Source: a virus (Duplodnaviria > Heunggongvirae > Uroviricota > Caudoviricetes). From it: a stretch of 3,997 nucleotides of DNA. The notes below the pieces were generated by a model that searched no databases, was not told the DNA's origin, and saw nothing but the letters and a program-made list of their open reading frames with translations. Each line of letters opens with the position of its first letter. Within the stretch, counting starts at the first letter, position 1. Where the stretch lies: IMG/VR virus record IMGVR_UViG_3300014970_000063; one strand, 5' to 3'. The position numbers were made by a program, and so were the translations under genes. Of the stretch, positions 1-3,997 are shown in pieces.

Positions 1-288
1 GCTATGGCTGCGCATTCGGGCCACCAGCAGAGGTGGCATTGCTTTTTCGATAGCTGGTAACAACGCCTGAATTTTTTTAACCGCATCAGGGGTGTCTTTC
101 TCCACCCAGCGGAAAATTTTCTGAGTATTGCGAGCCAGGGCTTCCGGATGGCTGTCGTCATACAGTTCCGGGAACGTCATTCCCAGCTCGAAATACGCTT
201 TGGTAATTTTCGCAGCCGGTACTTTTTCGCCGTCCGGATGCGCCCAGGCATTCATCGCCATGCGGATGTGTTCATGCTTGATTTTCAT
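1..288 (-). CDS. CII-like / YdaT-family prophage regulatory protein, partial (first 96 codons; 3' end lies beyond the window start)
   Basis: Minus-strand ATG at 288-286 opens a frame with no stop down to position 1, translating MKIKHEHIRMAMNAWAHPDGEKVPAAKITKAYFELGMTFPELYDDSHPEALARNTQKIFRWVEKDTPDAVKKIQALLPAIEKAMPPLLVARMRSHS. Its start overlaps the upstream Cro-like stop as ATGA (translational coupling). The N-terminus matches my recollection of Rac YdaT (MKIKHEHI...), and the position directly after a Cro-like gene is that of lambda cII / Rac ydaT. The plus-strand track ORFs 128..316 and 148..396 are its shadows. Confidence 0.7.
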   Translation of the reverse strand, partial: MKIKHEHIRMAMNAWAHPDGEKVPAAKITKAYFELGMTFPELYDDSHPEALARNTQKIFRWVEKDTPDAVKKIQALLPAIEKAMPPLLVARMRSHS

Positions 289-539
289 GAATCAACTCCC
301 ATCAGCTTTTTCGTAGTAGTTTTATTCCTGCCAATAGTTAAAATTGCATCGGCAGAAAATAATCCGTTTGATGCAAGAGCGATTTTTTCAGCGTAATTTG
401 TTTCGCCGGTATATTCTGTGCGAGGCAATTTTCCGTTATCCATCCATTTATAGATTGCTCTTTGGCTGACACCACAAACGTCGGCCACAACAGCAACGCG
501 AACGGTTTTGATTACATCTTCAAGTGTTTTCTGGTTCAT
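285..539 (-). CDS. Cro/YdaS/DicC-like small HTH regulator, 84 aa
   Basis: Internal Met 25 of track ORF 285..611(-) is preceded by a strong SD (minus strand GTGAGGGTGAT then ATG, plus coordinates 540-550). The product MNQKTLEDVIKTVRVAVVADVCGVSQRAIYKWMDNGKLPRTEYTGETNYAEKIALASNGLFSADAIL... has a helix-turn-helix and a P...TGET...IA pattern resembling DicC/YdaS-type Cro proteins. It is divergent from the repressor gene. The 24 codons upstream of Met 25 lie inside the promoter region and are taken as non-coding read-through. Confidence 0.8.
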   Translation of the reverse strand: MNQKTLEDVIKTVRVAVVADVCGVSQRAIYKWMDNGKLPRTEYTGETNYAEKIALASNGLFSADAILTIGRNKTTTKKLMGVDS

Positions 540-618
540 ATCACCCTCACAATGTGAACTTTGAGTACATGCTATAACAGAACTGACAGTACATTCAAGA
601 GCGAATATCATTGAACTT
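540..618. promoter_or_regulatory. Divergent promoter/operator region between the Cro-like and repressor genes (OR-like)
   Basis: 79-bp AT-rich intergenic region. It holds two copies of the 13-mer ACTnnnAGTACAT (558-570 and 582-594, cores 24 bp apart). Candidate rightward promoter: -35 CTGACA 583-588, 17-bp spacer, -10 TATCAT 606-611, with ATG at 619. Alternative rightward extended -10 TGcTATAAC 570-578. Candidate leftward promoter on the minus strand: -35 TTGAAT (plus 593-598) and extended -10 TGtTATAGC (plus 571-579). All promoter calls are by eye. Confidence 0.5.
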
Positions 619-1038
619 ATGGTTCATGAAGATAAAGCGCGTAAAGAGTTCGCCAGTAGGCTTGCGCTAGCCTGTGAAAACGCTGGTTATGAACAACATG
701 GAAGGCAGGCAGAAATTGCCCGTCGAATGAAATTAACACCAAAAGCGGTTAGCAAATGGTTTAATGGCGAAACAATTCCTCGCCGGGAGAAATTAAGGGA
801 ATTAGCAACACTAATAGGAACAACACCAACCTATCTTTTGGGAGAGGATACAGAAGAAAGTGGACAGGTACGTTTCTATCAGGAGTTAAATCCAAGACAA
901 AAAATCATCATTGACCTTCTGGACGAGCTCCCTGACAGTGAGACAGATGAACTTTTAAAAACTCTTGAAGAGAAAAAACAGAAGTACAATGCAATTTACG
1001 AAGAGTTAGCACGAAAGAAAAAACAAAAAGCCTCTTAA
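619..1038 (+). CDS. DicA/RacR-like XRE-family HTH repressor (prophage immunity repressor), 139 aa
   Basis: Contains a classic XRE helix-turn-helix (RQAEIARRMKLTPKAVSKWFNGETIPRREKLRELATLIGTTPTYLLGED). The C-terminal domain LNPRQKIIIDLLDELPDSETDELLKTLEEKKQKYNAIYEELARKKKQ parallels the DicA C-terminus as I recall it (LSPKELELLELFNALPESEQDTQLAEMRARVKNFNKLFEELLKARQ). No S24 peptidase domain is present. There is no SD before the ATG, which would fit a leaderless or near-leaderless mRNA. Confidence 0.85.
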   Translation: MVHEDKARKEFASRLALACENAGYEQHGRQAEIARRMKLTPKAVSKWFNGETIPRREKLRELATLIGTTPTYLLGEDTEESGQVRFYQELNPRQKIIIDLLDELPDSETDELLKTLEEKKQKYNAIYEELARKKKQKAS

Positions 1039-1101
1039 ACCAGCATAAATCCGGTAGCGCCTTCCTCCGGGTTTGTGCTTCACTTTATCCCATCTCATTT
1101 T

Positions 1102-1160
1102 TTTACACACAAAATGTACTAAAAGTACTTTACAACAATGAACGCAAAGTACATTATATG
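1102..1160 (+). promoter_or_regulatory. Early-operon promoter with operator repeats downstream of the repressor gene (OL / PdicB-like)
   Basis: T-tract 1096-1104 (UP-element-like), -35 TTTACA 1129-1134, -10 candidates CATTAT 1152-1157 or TACATT 1150-1155. Operator-like motifs: ATGTACT 1114-1120 (inverted copy), AGTACTT 1124-1130 and AGTACAT 1148-1154, the last two with the same 24-bp core spacing seen at 564/588. Confidence 0.5.
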
Positions 1161-1335
1161 CCTGCCACCCACCCCGCCCCACAGAATGCAGGGCAATACT
1201 TCGAGTTACCAGGCAGTGGTCAGGGGTTAAGTAGCCAGCCCGAGGCGTAAGAACATGACGGCAGGGTTCAACTTTAATAACTATGCAGCAGGTTTTTGTT
1301 CCGCTACCCCGGCGTTAAGGGGAAATGAGGTCAGC

Positions 1336-1491
1336 ATGGATACTATCGATCTTGGCAACAGCGAATCTCCGGTATGTGGCGTGTTCCCCAACCAGGACGG
1401 TACGTTCACCGCGATGACGTATACCAAAAGCAAAACGTTTAAAACCGAAAATGGTGCCCGTCGCTGGCTGGAAAGAAACTCAGGTGAGTGA
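1336..1491 (+). CDS. Small prophage protein, 51 aa, YdfA/YdaF-like by size and position
   Basis: ATG at 1336 is preceded by SD GAGG (1327-1330) at 5-nt spacing. Product MDTIDLGNSESPVCGVFPNQDGTFTAMTYTKSKTFKTENGARRWLERNSGE. A 51-aa first gene after the repressor matches Qin ydfA / Rac ydaF in my recollection (lengths recalled, not checked). The upstream in-frame ATG at 1255 (78-aa version) has rare AGG/GGA codons that read better as the SD itself. The stop overlaps the next start (TGAtATG). Confidence 0.6.
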   Translation: MDTIDLGNSESPVCGVFPNQDGTFTAMTYTKSKTFKTENGARRWLERNSGE

Positions 1492-1492
1492 T

Positions 1493-2068
1493 ATGGATTT
1501 CGACACAATCATGGAAAAGGCTTACGAAGAATACTTCGAAGGTCTTGCCGAAGGCGAAGAAGCTCTCAGCTTCAGTGAGTTTAAACAGGCACTCAGAATA
1601 AGAATGTGCTCTCACAATGACGCGGAGCACAAATATGAGAAGCAAAATCAGACCGCAGAAAATTTTGTTCTGGAACCCGGAGAAACGCTTTTCAAAATTC
1701 CCGTTACGTGCCCCATTTGCGGTTTTACATCAGAAGAACTTGACGACTCCTGTAACAATCAGGAAACAACCAAGTATGTCGAAGATGATACCGAGTGCGC
1801 ACTAAGAACGATTATATCCACGAGTCCAAACTCCAGGACCAATAAATCTCACTTTGAGAGGGTGATTAATCCACTCCCCCAAACCAATAAAAAAGATGCC
1901 GGAGGACAAAAAACCCAATGGAACAACGGGATATCTGTCAAAAAAAGACGTTCCATTAAAGACAAACAACGCAGCGCCAACAACTGTAAGCGCTTTATAC
2001 CAGCAATCAATTTTCATGTTCTTAAGCGGATTTATTGGTGGTTGCGACATTGCTTAATGAATCCTTAA
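1493..2068 (+). CDS. Hypothetical protein, 191 aa; acidic N-terminal half with a Cys cluster; 3' half of uncertain coding status
   Basis: ATG at 1493 with SD AGGTGA 7 nt upstream, tightly coupled to the preceding ORF. Codons 1-103 (1493-1801) have G at first codon position in 39 of 103 codons (coding-like) and carry CPICG...DDSC...DTEC. Codons 104-191 (1802-2065) drop to 12 of 88 G at first position, are K/N/Q/R-rich and use rare codons (AGA, AGG, ATA, CTA, CGA). No stop occurs before TAA at 2066-2068. Confidence 0.5.
   Translation: MDFDTIMEKAYEEYFEGLAEGEEALSFSEFKQALRIRMCSHNDAEHKYEKQNQTAENFVLEPGETLFKIPVTCPICGFTSEELDDSCNNQETTKYVEDDTECALRTIISTSPNSRTNKSHFERVINPLPQTNKKDAGGQKTQWNNGISVKKRRSIKDKQRSANNCKRFIPAINFHVLKRIYWWLRHCLMNP
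1802..2050 (-). CDS. Candidate small two-transmembrane-segment membrane protein, 82 aa (or 71 aa from the ATG at 2017); may instead be a shadow ORF
   Basis: The minus-strand ORF is exactly codon-aligned antisense to the 3' half of ORF 1493..2068. Its translation has two hydrophobic segments (WYKALTVVGAALFVFNGTSFF and VVPLGFLSSGIFFIGLGEWI) and G at first codon position in 22 of 82 codons. An AAGGA SD lies 11 nt upstream of the ATG at 2050, inside the inverted repeat 2061-2089. This is a position-analogous ORF to Rac sieB, which I recall as being on the opposite strand; no homology is claimed. Confidence 0.3.
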   Translation of the reverse strand: MSQPPINPLKNMKIDCWYKALTVVGAALFVFNGTSFFDRYPVVPLGFLSSGIFFIGLGEWINHPLKVRFIGPGVWTRGYNRS

Positions 2069-2089
2069 AACTGTGGTGATTTTAAGGAT
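2061..2089. repeat. Perfect 10-bp inverted repeat ATCCTTAAAA-N9-TTTTAAGGAT
   Basis: Read directly from the sequence. It covers the stop codon (2066-2068) of the plus ORF and, on the minus strand, the SD of ORF 1802..2050. No U-tract follows on either strand, so it is not a classical intrinsic terminator. Confidence 0.6.
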
Positions 2090-2129
2090 ACCACCTCGCC
2101 TGACGTGGTTAAAAGCAGGCACACAACAC

Positions 2130-2195
2130 GAAAGCGCACGGCGAAGTTCGTCTCACTGTACGGTGTCGTTAAATTTAATTCGACCGTGCGCTTCC
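2130..2195 (+). other. Long interrupted hairpin (AAGCGCACGG 2132-2141 pairs with CCGTGCGCTT 2184-2193, plus 4 more bp after a 1-nt bulge); candidate RNA processing or structural element
   Basis: 10-bp perfect complementarity plus the flanking CGAA/TTCG pairs, read from the sequence. It lies in a GC-rich segment without convincing ATG-initiated ORFs; the track ORFs 2073..2258 and 2105..2296 start at GTG and are rich in rare codons. Confidence 0.45.
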
Positions 2196-2327
2196 GGTTG
2201 TGGCAACCCGCGAAATGGCGCGGCGGTAAGTATGGCGGGGTTATTCCTTCCCCGTTGAGGACACCGAGTTGTCAGGTTGACCATACGCTTAAGTGACAAC
2301 CCCGCTGCAACGCCCTCTGTTATCAAT

Positions 2328-2385
2328 TTTCTGGTGACGTTTGGCGGTATCAGTTTTACTCCGTGACTGCTCTGCCGCCGTTTTT
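2328..2385 (+). ncRNA. dicF: DicF-like small RNA (prophage-encoded ftsZ antisense sRNA family), about 53 nt plus U-tail
   Basis: TTTCTGGTGACGTTTGGCGGTATCAGTTTTACTCCGTGACTGCTCTGCCGCC(G)TTTTT matches my recollection of E. coli Qin DicF almost base for base, including the GGCGG/CCGCC terminator stem. The genomic context (DicA-like repressor, then YdfA-like ORF, then this sRNA) matches the Qin dicB operon order as recalled. Not confirmed by any search. Confidence 0.7.
2343..2385 (+). terminator. Rho-independent terminator (3' end of the DicF-like sRNA)
   Basis: Stem GGCGGTA (2343-2349) pairs with TGCCGCC (2373-2379), with an inner CAGT/ACTG helix (2351-2354 with 2366-2369), followed by G and TTTTT (2381-2385). 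Confidence 0.65.
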
Positions 2386-2454
2386 AAAGTGAATTTTGTG
2401 ATGCGGTGAATGCGGCTAAGCGCACGCGGAACAGTTAAAACCAAAAACAGTGTT

Positions 2455-2682
2455 ATGGGTGGATTCTCTGTATCCGAAGAGCAGTTAATTGCGCTGAAAG
2501 GAATAAAAAAAGGTACGTTAAAAAAGGTCCGGGAAAAATCGTTTATGGAAGGAAGGGAATATAAGCATGTCGCTCATGACGGTATGCCATGGGATAACAG
2601 TCCATGCTTTTACAACCTGGAAGAAATTGATCGCTGGATTGAGCGCCAGGCATCAGCAAGACCAAGACGTCATCTTACTTGA
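2455..2682 (+). CDS. xis: Excisionase-like protein (lambda Xis-type), 75 aa from the ATG at 2455; the maximal ORF starts at 2410 (90 aa)
   Basis: Sits immediately upstream of and co-oriented with the integrase gene. The core KGTLKKVREKSFMEGREYKHVAHDG resembles the lambda Xis region SLETVRRWVRECRIFPPPVKDGREYLFHES as recalled (shared GREY motif). Neither candidate start has a good SD. The ATG at 2410 lies inside tandem repeats that may be promoter elements, so 2455 is preferred. Confidence 0.6.
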   Translation: MGGFSVSEEQLIALKGIKKGTLKKVREKSFMEGREYKHVAHDGMPWDNSPCFYNLEEIDRWIERQASARPRRHLT

Positions 2683-2716
2683 CTAAAAGCCACACTAACT
2701 AATGAGAGAAGTTGAA

Positions 2717-3997
2717 ATGAAATATCCGACAGGCGTGGAAAACCATGGAGGGAAATTACGTATCTGGTTTGTTTATAAAGGCGTAAGAGTCAGGGAAAAT
2801 CTGGGGGTTCCTGACACAGCAAAAAACAGGCGCGTTGCAGGTGAACTACGCGCCTCTGTTTGTTACGCAATAAAAACTGGTGTTTTCGACTATGCAAAAC
2901 AGTTTCCCTCCTCACGCAATCTGGAAAAATTTGGTGAGGCCCGACAAGATTTAACCATAAAAGAACTGGCTGAAAAATTTCTGGCACTGAAAGAAACTGA
3001 AGTCGCCAAAACATCACTCAACACATACCGTGCCGTCATCAAAAATATCCTGAGCATAATCGGTGAAAAAAATCTTGCCTCATCGATTAATAAAGAAAAA
3101 TTACTGGAGGTTCGTAAAGAGCTACTGACTGGATACCAGATCCCCAAAAGTAACTATATTGTTACACAACCAGGGAGATCGGCTGTAACTGTAAATAATT
3201 ACATGACAAATCTTAACGCCGTGTTCCAGTTTGGTGTTGATAACGGTTACCTGGCAGATAACCCGTTTAAGGGGATCTCGCCATTAAAGGAATCAAGAAC
3301 CATTCCGGATCCTCTTTCGCGGGAGGAATTCATCCGTCTTATCGATGCGTGCAGAAATCAGCAAGCCAAAAATTTATGGTGTGTTTCTGTTTATACTGGC
3401 GTTCGCCCTGGTGAGCTGTGTGCACTTGGATGGGAGGACATAGATCTGAAAAATAGAACAATGATGATCAGGAGAAATTTAGCAAAAGACCGTTTCACGG
3501 TCCCAAAAACACAGGCGGGAACCAATCGGGTCATTCATCTTATTAAGCCAGCAATCGACGCTCTCCGGAGTCAGATGACATTAACGAGACTGAGCAAAGA
3601 GCATATCATTGATGTTCACCTCAGAGAGTATGGCAGAACAGAAAAACATAAATGCACCTTTGTTTTTCAACCTGAAGTGTCAGCGAGAGTAAAAAATTAT
3701 GGTGACCATTTTACCGTTGACTCAATAAGGCAGATGTGGGACGCAGCGATAAAACGTGCCGGACTCCGCCATCGAAAATCATATCAGTCGAGACATACTT
3801 ATGCCTGCTGGTCGCTGACAGCTGGTGCTAACCCGGCATTTATAGCAAACCAGATGGGCCATGCAGATGCGCAAATGGTATTTCAGGTATACGGAAAATG
3901 GATGTCTGAAAACAATAATGCACAGGTAGCTTTGTTAAATACACAGTTAAGCGAGTTTGCCCCAACCATGCCCCATAACGAAGCAATGAAAAATTAA
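2717..3997 (+). CDS. int: Tyrosine recombinase / phage integrase, IntR (Rac)-like, 426 aa
   Basis: Translation from the ATG at 2717 (MKYPTGVENHGGKLRIWFVYKGVRVRENLG...) parallels Rac IntR as recalled (MSKLPTGVEIRGRYIRIWF...). Catalytic signatures are present: box I TGVRPGELCALGWEDIDL, box II SRHTYACWSLTAGANPAFIANQMGH, and the tyrosine in QVYGKW. A purine-rich GAGAGAAG precedes the ATG at 2717. The track start at 2702 adds five residues with no SD. The gene ends at the last base of the window, so the attachment site is expected just beyond it. Confidence 0.92.
   Translation: MKYPTGVENHGGKLRIWFVYKGVRVRENLGVPDTAKNRRVAGELRASVCYAIKTGVFDYAKQFPSSRNLEKFGEARQDLTIKELAEKFLALKETEVAKTSLNTYRAVIKNILSIIGEKNLASSINKEKLLEVRKELLTGYQIPKSNYIVTQPGRSAVTVNNYMTNLNAVFQFGVDNGYLADNPFKGISPLKESRTIPDPLSREEFIRLIDACRNQQAKNLWCVSVYTGVRPGELCALGWEDIDLKNRTMMIRRNLAKDRFTVPKTQAGTNRVIHLIKPAIDALRSQMTLTRLSKEHIIDVHLREYGRTEKHKCTFVFQPEVSARVKNYGDHFTVDSIRQMWDAAIKRAGLRHRKSYQSRHTYACWSLTAGANPAFIANQMGHADAQMVFQVYGKWMSENNNAQVALLNTQLSEFAPTMPHNEAMKN

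What the first reader, a model, noticed from the sequence alone, without database searches (positions are those of the whole stretch)
1..3997. Unusually compact mosaic Rac/Qin-type element: immunity switch only about 1.4 kb from xis-int
In the Rac and Qin layouts as I recall them, the repressor and integrase are separated by several kb of kil, recET and dicB-type genes. Here only two ORFs and one sRNA intervene. The left side is Rac-like (Cro-like plus YdaT-like), the middle Qin-like (YdfA-like, DicF-like), and the integrase IntR-like. This suggests a deletion-reduced cryptic prophage or a small satellite-like integrative element that keeps a derepressible operon.
Basis: inference. Interest (0 to 1): 0.45.

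Follow-up and report, generated by a model that had tools for sequence, protein, structure and literature searches.

The report
Qin-type prophage arm shortened by deletion
This is the immunity-to-integrase arm of a well-known E. coli Qin/Tritos-type lambdoid prophage, and it looks compact only because a roughly 3-kb microhomology deletion removed dicB, ydfD, the exonuclease gene and the start of xis, so it is ordinary prophage decay.

Summary
The repressor gene ends at 1038 and the xis-like ORF starts at 2455, so 1.4 kb separates them. That stretch holds ydfA, a truncated ydfB, an antisense pseudogene and DicF (Rfam 72.5 bits).

The Rac and IntR labels do not hold.
- The repressor is 139/139 identical to CI of the plaque-forming phage Tritos.
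- The integrase is 424/426 identical to that of phage mEp460_ev081 and 99% (nucleotide) to the K-12 intQ remnant. It is only 43% identical to IntR.

In three sequenced phages of this type (Tritos, mEp460_ev081, HannyBb) the same interval is 4.4 kb: ydfABC-dicF-dicB-ydfD-exonuclease-xis-int. The window lacks 3,138 bp relative to Tritos. It lacks 1,073 bp relative to its nearest complete genomes, ET896 and LR-27. The ends join at the 7-bp repeat GTATCCG (2470-2476), which replaces the first 13 xis codons.

The junction is absent from 5,426 complete E. coli genomes. It occurs in one independent metagenome contig, so it is probably real but rare. In ET896 the prophage is a 25.9-kb defective Qin-type element at ydfJ/rspB, not a satellite.

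Verdict: a known prophage with a rare deletion allele. Interest is low.

The parts
1..288 (-). 5' part (96 codons) of a cII-equivalent / YdaT-family regulator gene. It runs off the window.
   Evidence: Pfam YdaT_toxin 2.3e-09. phrog_163 'CII-like transcriptional activator' 1.9e-40. 37% identical to Rac YdaT and 36% to K-12 Qin YdfX.
285..539 (-). cro-like small HTH regulator (84 aa). Its stop overlaps the YdaT-like start by 4 bp.
   Evidence: HTH_17, below the Pfam cut-off. phrog_35 6.8e-14. Annotated as Cro in phage Tritos. No significant similarity to Rac YdaS.
555..627 (.). Three operator-like sites (555-570, 579-594, 611-627) between the divergent cro-like and repressor genes. A promoter-like site at 583-611 (+) points at the repressor gene.
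   Evidence: Pattern TGAAC-N4-AGTACAT: 7 matches against 0.28 expected, reached by 0 of 200 shuffles. 24-bp spacing. Promoter scan.
619..1038 (+). DicA-type CI repressor (139 aa, HTH_3, no peptidase S24 domain).
   Evidence: 139/139 identical to CI of phage Tritos. HTH_3 1.8e-09. NCBIfam DicA subfamily 2e-15, below the cut-off. 29% identical to K-12 DicA.
1114..1157 (+). Two more operator sites (1114-1130, 1139-1154) overlapping a promoter-like site (TTTACA-17-CATTAT, 1129-1157). This is the equivalent of dicBp / pL.
   Evidence: Function inferred from K-12 dicBp (PMC10448788).
1336..1491 (+). ydfA (DUF1391, 51 aa).
   Evidence: Pfam DUF1391 6.7e-26. 94% identical to K-12 YdfA.
1493..1594 (+). 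ydfB remnant. The first 34 codons are 100% identical to K-12 YdfB, after which homology ends.
   Evidence: PGAP annotation 'ydfB, missing C-terminus' in ET896.
1594..2110 (.). 517-bp segment that replaces the ydfB 3' end and ydfC. It is a common alternative module.
   Evidence: Present in 806 of 5,426 complete E. coli genomes. 99.4% identical in phage HannyBb. Not in K-12 Qin.
1730..2050 (-). Pseudogene of a conserved 106-aa three-TM membrane protein, antisense to the operon. It carries TAG at codon 83 (1802-1804) and Y16C in the DYWYKAL motif, which all eight retrieved homologs share.
   Evidence: Full-length homologs at 47-99% identity. They lie next to cI-type repressors in other lambdoid prophages. 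No family hit.
2328..2386 (+). DicF sRNA (53 nt, 2328-2380) with terminator hairpin and T-run. The upstream precursor region from 2111 is conserved with K-12.
   Evidence: RF00039 72.5 bits, E=3e-15. 52/53 identical to K-12 dicF. Hairpin plus UUUUU. Window 2111-2476 is 93% identical to K-12.
2470..2476 (.). Deletion junction: the 7-bp microhomology GTATCCG. It joins DNA 90 bp downstream of dicF to codon 14 of xis.
   Evidence: Window 1-2476 and 2470-3997 match ET896 at places 1,073 bp apart. Six-way alignment with Tritos, ET896 and L004.
2455..2682 (+). xis' fusion ORF (75 aa from ATG 2455, or 90 aa from ATG 2410). The native excisionase sequence starts at 2470. The native N-terminus MSEVIMIVSPGKW is replaced by MGGFS, and I see no Shine-Dalgarno sequence.
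   Evidence: Pfam DUF1233 1.8e-26, but model positions 1-9 are missing. Sequence comparison. This ORF is absent from the protein collections.
2717..3997 (+). Intact IntQ-type tyrosine integrase (426 aa).
   Evidence: Arm-DNA-bind_2 and Phage_integrase. 424/426 identical to mEp460_ev081 Int. 99.05% nucleotide identity to the K-12 intQ remnant. 43% identical to IntR.

Best explanation
The window is the early-left arm of a Qin-type lambdoid prophage. It runs from the immunity region to the integrase. The phage type is that of Tritos, mEp460 and HannyBb, which integrate at the E. coli ydfJ/rspB site.

**How the arm became short.** In sequenced phages of this type the arm reads cII-like, cro, cI, ydfA, ydfB, ydfC or an alternative module, dicF, dicB, ydfD, a 2.5-kb exonuclease gene, xis, int. 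Here an illegitimate (microhomology-mediated) deletion between two copies of GTATCCG removed dicB, ydfD, the exonuclease gene and the first 13 codons of xis.

**What is shown.**
- The gene identities.
- The exact junction.
- The missing DNA: 3,138 bp relative to Tritos and 1,073 bp relative to ET896 and LR-27.
- Repeated operators at both promoter regions.
- An intact DicF.
- An integrase with no frameshift or stop codon.

**What is inferred.**
- The DicA-type repressor binds the five TGAAC-N4-AGTACAT sites and keeps the ydfA-dicF operon off, as DicA does at dicBp in K-12.
- Transcripts that read through the DicF terminator now run directly into xis'-int.
- The N-terminally replaced Xis, which has no visible ribosome-binding site, is weak or dead, so the prophage is likely locked in.
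For: - **Identity to known phages.** The repressor is 139/139 identical to Tritos CI. Tritos is a plaque-forming LF82 prophage whose CI is expressed in the lysogen (PMC9928086). The integrase is 424/426 identical to that of mEp460_ev081. The 517-bp middle module is 99.4% identical to HannyBb.
- **Normal layout.** cI to xis is 4.4 kb in Tritos, mEp460_ev081 and HannyBb. The dicF-to-xis module is intact in 3,409 of 5,426 complete E. coli genomes.
- **The junction.** map it to the base.
- **Locus and size.** ET896 matches the window except for 2 SNPs and the extra 1,073 bp. There the prophage lies between ydfJ' and rspB and is bounded by the 11-bp repeat GAAATCCATAA. It spans 25.9 kb and carries pseudogenised terminase, portal and tail genes.
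- **The junction looks real.** The same 36-mer occurs in an independent metagenome contig with a different ydfB/ydfC module. Another metagenome contig that carries the exact Int protein starts precisely at base 2470.
- **Regulation.** Operators. DicF. dicBp control and DicF processing in K-12: PMC10448788.
Against: - The window's own flanks are not available, so the size and defectiveness of its prophage are extrapolated from ET896 and LR-27.
- Nothing here tests expression, Xis' activity or excision.
- The same junction sits in a second background (8 SNPs in 1.1 kb, and a different left module). It is therefore unclear whether the deletion arose once or more than once.
- The junction was found in none of 5,426 complete genomes, in no GTDB species representative and in no IMG/VR contig. 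The window's source could not be identified.
Confidence: 0.85

Rival explanations
1. The element is a small satellite-like (PICI-type) integrative element. It would keep only an immunity switch, a short derepressible operon and xis-int.
For: Within the window the arm is only 1.4 kb. The window's own flanks are unknown.
Against: - Every module is at least 97% identical to full-size temperate phages or Qin-locus prophages.
- The nearest genomes differ by 2 SNPs and carry a 25.9-kb prophage with Q, lysis genes and terminase, portal and tail remnants.
- The shortness is fully explained by one mapped deletion that cuts into xis. That is not a designed compact architecture.
Confidence: 0.03
2. The junction is an assembly or chimera artefact. 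The true genome would have the ET896-type arrangement.
For: No complete E. coli genome has the junction. The fused xis ORF is absent from 15 billion predicted proteins.
Against: - An identical junction occurs in an independent metagenome assembly with a different neighbouring module.
- A contig break falls exactly at 2470 in a third sample, as expected where deleted and undeleted variants coexist.
- A 7-bp repeat is too short to mislead assemblers.
Confidence: 0.05
3. The window belongs to a still-viable full-length temperate phage that has simply lost accessory early-left genes. Xis' would be functional from ATG 2455.
For: - dicB, ydfD and the exonuclease gene lie in the early-left arm, and I assume from knowledge of lambdoid phages that they are not essential. 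This was not tested here.
- The repressor and integrase genes are intact, and the visible 5' part of the cII-like gene has no stop.
- The fusion keeps the xis reading frame.
Against: - The nearest relatives are defective.
- Xis' lacks the Trp of the GKW motif, which also aligns in the one solved homologue, 2KVV. It also lacks Pfam model positions 1-9, and I see no Shine-Dalgarno sequence.
- The antisense moron gene is also a pseudogene, which suggests general decay.
Confidence: 0.07

Closest known systems
Escherichia phage Tritos (LF82 prophage 3, OV696610; PMC9928086)
   Same: The CI repressor is identical (139/139). The immunity region and dicF are 97.8% identical at nucleotide level. The gene order is the same: cII-like, cro, cI, ydfA, ydfB ... 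dicF ... xis, int. LF82 matches the Tritos dicF-to-xis module at 100% at chromosome position 1.63 Mb.
   Different: Tritos is a 46-kb plaque-forming phage. It carries ydfC, dicB, ydfD, a 2.47-kb exonuclease gene and a full xis. The window lacks 3,138 bp of this and has a different 517-bp module in place of ydfB 3'/ydfC.
Cryptic prophage Qin of E. coli K-12 (dicBF operon)
   Same: The integrase is the same: 99% nucleotide identity to the intQ remnant. ydfA is 94% identical at amino-acid level and DicF is 52/53 identical. The regulatory logic is the same, with DicA/DicC working like CI/Cro. In the window's near-identical relative ET896 the prophage occupies the K-12 Qin site between ydfJ and rspB (PMC10448788).
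   Different: K-12 Qin has a different immunity specificity (DicA is 29% identical). It keeps dicB and ydfD, and it lost xis and the int 5' end to an IS2 insertion. The window keeps int intact but lost dicB, ydfD, the exonuclease gene and the xis 5' end.
Qin-type prophage of E. coli ET896 (NZ_CP100883) and LR-27 (NZ_AP027506)
   Same: ET896 is identical to the window over all 3,997 bases apart from 2 SNPs. LR-27 matches at 100.0% in the same two pieces. Both have the same mosaic of modules.
   Different: They retain 1,073 bp at the junction: dicB, a ydfD'-'exonuclease fusion left by an earlier deletion of about 2 kb, and the first 39 nt of xis.
Cryptic prophage Rac of E. coli K-12
   Same: It has the same general lambdoid layout and shares protein families: an Arm-DNA-bind_2 integrase, YdaT-family and DUF1391.
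   Different: IntR is 43% identical and YdaT 37%. The cro-like protein shows no significant similarity to YdaS. The repressor matches RacR only across the HTH. There is no kilR, recET or sieB in the window. The window is not a Rac module.

Membership tests
Qin/Tritos-type lambdoid prophage early-left arm (dicBF operon) | A DicA-type HTH repressor without a peptidase S24 domain, divergent from a cro-like gene. | tested here: met
   HTH_3 only. DicA subfamily hit at 2e-15, below the cut-off. 100% identical to Tritos CI.
Qin/Tritos-type lambdoid prophage early-left arm (dicBF operon) | Repeated operators at the divergent promoters and at the promoter upstream of ydfA. | tested here: met
   Five sites giving 7 strand matches against 0.28 expected. 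24-bp spacing. Repressor binding itself was not tested.
Qin/Tritos-type lambdoid prophage early-left arm (dicBF operon) | The gene order ydfA-ydfB-ydfC upstream of dicF. | tested here: inconclusive
   ydfA is intact. ydfB is truncated after codon 34. ydfC is replaced by a 517-bp alternative module that is itself common (806 genomes).
Qin/Tritos-type lambdoid prophage early-left arm (dicBF operon) | dicB and ydfD downstream of dicF. | tested here: not met
   Deleted. The junction lies 90 bp after dicF. The arm is a deletion derivative, not a complete dicBF operon.
Qin/Tritos-type lambdoid prophage early-left arm (dicBF operon) | An IntQ-type integrase and integration at ydfJ/rspB with the GAAATCCATAA repeat. 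| tested here: inconclusive
   The integrase criterion is met. The att repeat lies 38 nt beyond the int stop in ET896 and K-12, which is outside the window, so the site cannot be seen here.
DicF RNA (Rfam RF00039) | A covariance-model score above the gathering threshold, with a single-stranded 5' seed and a terminator hairpin. | tested here: met
   72.5 bits against 48, full-length model match. 52/53 identical to K-12 dicF. Fold.
Rac prophage module | Orthologues of IntR, RacR and YdaS/YdaT, plus kilR-recET between the repressor and int. | tested here: not met
   IntR 43%. YdaT 37%. The cro-like protein has no significant match to YdaS. The repressor matches RacR only across the HTH. No kil or recET ORFs in the window.
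Excisionase, DUF1233 family | A full-length domain including the N-terminal Trp motif. | tested here: not met
   The Pfam match starts at model position 10. The native MSEVIMIVSPGKW is replaced. The Trp aligns to the solved homologue 2KVV.
Phage satellite / PICI-like island | A small size bounded by att sites, with no lysis or morphogenesis genes of its own. | not testable with these tools
   The window's flanks are unavailable. The near-identical relative ET896 has a 25.9-kb element with Q, holin, lysozyme and terminase, portal and tail remnants.

The most novel reading that the evidence does not exclude
The dicB-to-xis' deletion may be a selected or recurrent 'domestication' allele rather than a random private loss. 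In one step it removes the two toxic products, DicB and YdfD. It keeps the DicF regulator under the phage repressor. It cripples excision and places xis'-int directly behind the derepressible promoter. Two observations do not exclude this reading. The identical junction occurs in two sequence backgrounds. The breakpoints share an extended imperfect homology (GTATCCGA.G...TTAATTG).
Probability: 0.12. Interest if true: 0.3.

Novelty: already known. Interest (0 to 1): 0.13.

Why it matters
It matters little beyond annotation. The case shows base by base how a common temperate phage type decays into a Qin-like cryptic prophage. It also yields a natural dicF-positive, dicB-negative allele that could help separate DicF effects from DicB effects. 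It corrects the Rac/IntR labelling. It also shows that PGAP names such as 'toxin YdaT' and 'AlpA family' refer here to the cII and cro equivalents of the phage switch.

Tried and rejected
- **Rac origin of the left side and the integrase.** Rejected by protein comparisons.
- **Looking for the window's source or further carriers of the junction.**
  - No complete E. coli genome has it.
  - No GTDB species representative has it, with either a 36-mer or a 20-mer probe.
  - No IMG/VR contig has it.
  - There is one metagenome contig, of which only 1.9 kb is held.
  - Exact look-ups of the fused Xis ORF (90 aa and 75 aa) found nothing.
  - A homology search found no protein covering the fusion's N-terminus.
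- **orf82 as a SieB relative.** It sits in the same position as Rac sieB, but there is no similarity. It has no Pfam, PHROG, NCBIfam or PADLOC hit.
- **The sense 191/205-aa ORF (phrog_35040) as a real gene.** Judged a probable shadow ORF, because the antisense frame is the one conserved out to Yersinia.
- **Other RNA families.** None besides DicF at E<=1.
- **Fold energy of DicF alone.** Not distinctive (z = -1.1). The identification rests on Rfam and sequence identity.
- **Promoter and terminator scan.** It does not exceed shuffled expectation overall. Only the sites that overlap operators are used.

Full report
**What is in the window.**

The ORF list and family scans and Rfam give the following features, left to right:
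- The first 96 codons of a cII-equivalent / YdaT-family gene (1-288, minus strand).
- A cro-like HTH gene (285-539, minus strand) that overlaps the previous gene by 4 bp.
- A 139-aa HTH_3 repressor without a peptidase domain (619-1038).
- ydfA, a DUF1391 gene (1336-1491).
- The first 34 codons of ydfB (1493-1594).
- A 517-bp segment (1594-2110) that is unrelated to K-12 Qin.
- DicF (2329-2380; RF00039 at 72.5 bits against a gathering score of 48; 52/53 identical to K-12 dicF).
- An excisionase-family ORF ending at 2682.
- A 426-aa tyrosine integrase (2717-3997).

The repressor stop and the xis-like ORF are 1.4 kb apart.

**The switch.**

A motif TGAAC-N4-AGTACAT occurs at five places:
- 555-570, 579-594 and 611-627, between the divergent cro-like and repressor genes.
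- 1114-1130 and 1139-1154, where it overlaps a promoter-like TTTACA-17-CATTAT upstream of ydfA.

This gives 7 strand matches against 0.28 expected, and none of 200 shuffles reached that number. Neighbouring sites are 24 bp apart.

This is the sequence signature of a lambda-like OR/OL arrangement. It matches what is known for K-12, where DicA represses dicBp upstream of ydfA and DicA/DicC behave like CI/Cro (PMC10448788). Binding of the repressor to these sites is inferred, not shown.

**What it is related to.**

The repressor is 139/139 identical to CI of phage Tritos. Tritos is a 46-kb plaque-forming prophage of E. coli LF82, and its CI is expressed in the lysogen (PMC9928086).

The integrase is 424/426 identical to that of phage mEp460_ev081. 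It is 99.05% identical at nucleotide level to the K-12 intQ remnant and only 43% identical to IntR of Rac.

Comparisons with Rac give only weak similarity:
- The cro-like protein has no significant similarity to YdaS.
- The repressor matches RacR only across the HTH.
- The YdaT-like fragment is 37% identical to Rac YdaT and 36% identical to K-12 Qin YdfX.

The 517-bp middle segment is 99.4% identical to phage HannyBb. It is present in 806 of 5,426 complete E. coli genomes.

The window is therefore mosaic in the usual lambdoid sense, but all of its modules belong to the Qin/Tritos/mEp460 group. Nothing in it is specifically Rac.

**Why it is compact.**

In Tritos, mEp460_ev081 and HannyBb the arm reads cI, ydfA, ydfB, ydfC or an alternative, dicF, dicB, ydfD, a 2.47-kb exonuclease gene, xis, int. 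The distance from cI to xis is 4.4 kb. The dicF-to-xis module is intact in 3,409 of 5,426 complete genomes.

The best complete-genome matches are ET896 and LR-27. ET896 equals the window apart from 2 SNPs, but in two pieces. Window 1-2476 matches locus positions 20001-22476. Window 2470-3997 matches 23550-25077.

The two pieces overlap by GTATCCG, which is present at both breakpoints in the undeleted sequence.

Relative to ET896 the window lacks 1,073 bp. This stretch holds dicB, a ydfD'-'exonuclease fusion left by an earlier deletion of about 2 kb, and the first 39 nt of xis. Relative to Tritos it lacks 3,138 bp.

The breakpoints also share a looser similarity (GTATCCGA.G...TTAATTG). It is visible in the alignment and in the 111-nt hits.

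**Consequences for xis.**

The native N-terminus MSEVIMIVSPGKW is replaced in frame by MGGFS (from ATG 2455) or by a longer leader (from ATG 2410).

The Pfam DUF1233 match starts at model position 10. The lost Trp aligns with the solved homologue 2KVV. I see no Shine-Dalgarno sequence ahead of either ATG.

I infer that Xis' is weak or inactive. The integrase has no frameshift or stop codon.

**Is the junction real?**

Searches for the junction gave these results:
- No complete E. coli genome spans it.
- No GTDB species representative has it.
- No IMG/VR contig has it.
- The fused ORF is not in the protein collections.

An exact 36-mer match does exist in metagenome contig ERZ772851 NODE_1729. 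That contig carries a K-12-like ydfB and ydfC instead of the 517-bp module. It differs from the window at 8 positions between 2180 and 3284, none of them within 90 bp of the junction.

A further metagenome contig (ERZ1741996 NODE_2165) encodes the exact Int protein and begins precisely at base 2470. An assembly graph would break there if deleted and undeleted variants coexist in the sample.

Other contigs carry the same Int allele with an intact xis (L015 and L016).

The deletion is thus probably real, rare and probably recent. Whether it arose once or repeatedly cannot be decided from these data.

**The element as a whole.**

The window ends at the int stop codon, so att cannot be seen in it.

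In ET896 the prophage lies between a truncated ydfJ and rspB. It is bounded by the 11-bp direct repeat GAAATCCATAA, which also marks the annotated ends of K-12 Qin. It spans 25.9 kb.

It carries Q, holin, lysozyme, hokD, replication genes and pseudogenised terminase, portal and tape-measure genes. That makes it a defective Qin-type prophage, not a satellite.

By extrapolation the window's element is the same minus about 1.07 kb. This step is inferred.

**How it most likely works.**

- The repressor holds both promoters.
- DicB and YdfD, the toxic proteins of the operon, can no longer be produced.
- Transcripts that read through the DicF terminator, which in K-12 reach dicB-ydfD, now enter xis'-int.
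- Excision is probably impaired.

This is ordinary prophage decay, and it fits loss of toxic genes.

**Side observation.**

The minus-strand ORF at 1802-2050 is a nonsense allele of a conserved 106-aa three-TM protein. It has TAG at codon 83 and Y16C in the DYWYKAL motif, which all eight retrieved homologs share.

Full-length homologues range from 99% down to 47% identity, including one in Yersinia. They lie 300-500 bp from cI-type repressors, convergent with them, in otherwise different lambdoid prophages.

The protein matches no curated family. It looks like a moron gene at the position that rex and sieB occupy in other phages.

**Verdict.**

It is partly wrong: the modules are not Rac, the integrase is not IntR-like, and the element is not a satellite.

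Everything here is at least 97% identical to described phages and prophages. The only new item is a rare deletion allele. Interest is low.

Noticed in passing
window 1730-2050 (-): This is a truncated allele (TAG at codon 83, plus Y16C) of a conserved, unannotated 106-aa three-TM protein family. Intact homologues at 47-99% identity, reaching Yersinia, sit next to and convergent with cI-type repressors in diverse lambdoid prophages. The family has no Pfam, PHROG, NCBIfam or PADLOC hit. It may be a moron or exclusion gene. PGAP mostly leaves it unannotated.
   Followed up: partly
window 1493-2068 (+): A 191/205-aa sense ORF is annotated as a protein in phage HannyBb and forms phrog_35040. It looks like a shadow ORF made by read-through from the truncated ydfB across the antisense gene.
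   Followed up: partly
L017 1-30 (ERZ1741996 NODE_2165): This metagenome contig encodes the exact Int protein of the window and begins exactly at the first base of the GTATCCG microhomology. That suggests a graph branch between deleted and undeleted variants in the sample.
   Followed up: partly
L001 22740-23438 (E. coli ET896): The nearest complete genome has its own earlier deletion of about 2 kb that fuses ydfD codon 36 to the last 591 nt of the exonuclease gene. Other genomes (H3-H6) keep an extra 1,727 bp between dicF and xis rather than ET896's 1,073 bp, and K-12 has an IS2 insertion here. This arm therefore appears to decay independently in several lineages.
   Followed up: partly
window 2470-2491; L019 11348-11370 and 14486-14507: The two breakpoints share more than the 7-bp repeat. 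An imperfect similarity GTATCCGA.G...TTAATTG extends over about 20 bp, which could favour recurrent deletion.
   Followed up: no
L006 10287-10427, and contig ends in L005 and L007-L013: Many draft contigs stop within about 40-300 bp beyond the 106-aa gene, and one shows an rve_3 (IS) fragment there. This suggests a frequent IS insertion at the ydfB side of the module.
   Followed up: no
window 2062-2088: A perfect 9-bp inverted repeat (TCCTTAAAA-N9-TTTTAAGGA) lies just upstream of the antisense gene's start, near the right edge of the 517-bp module. Its function is unknown.
   Followed up: no
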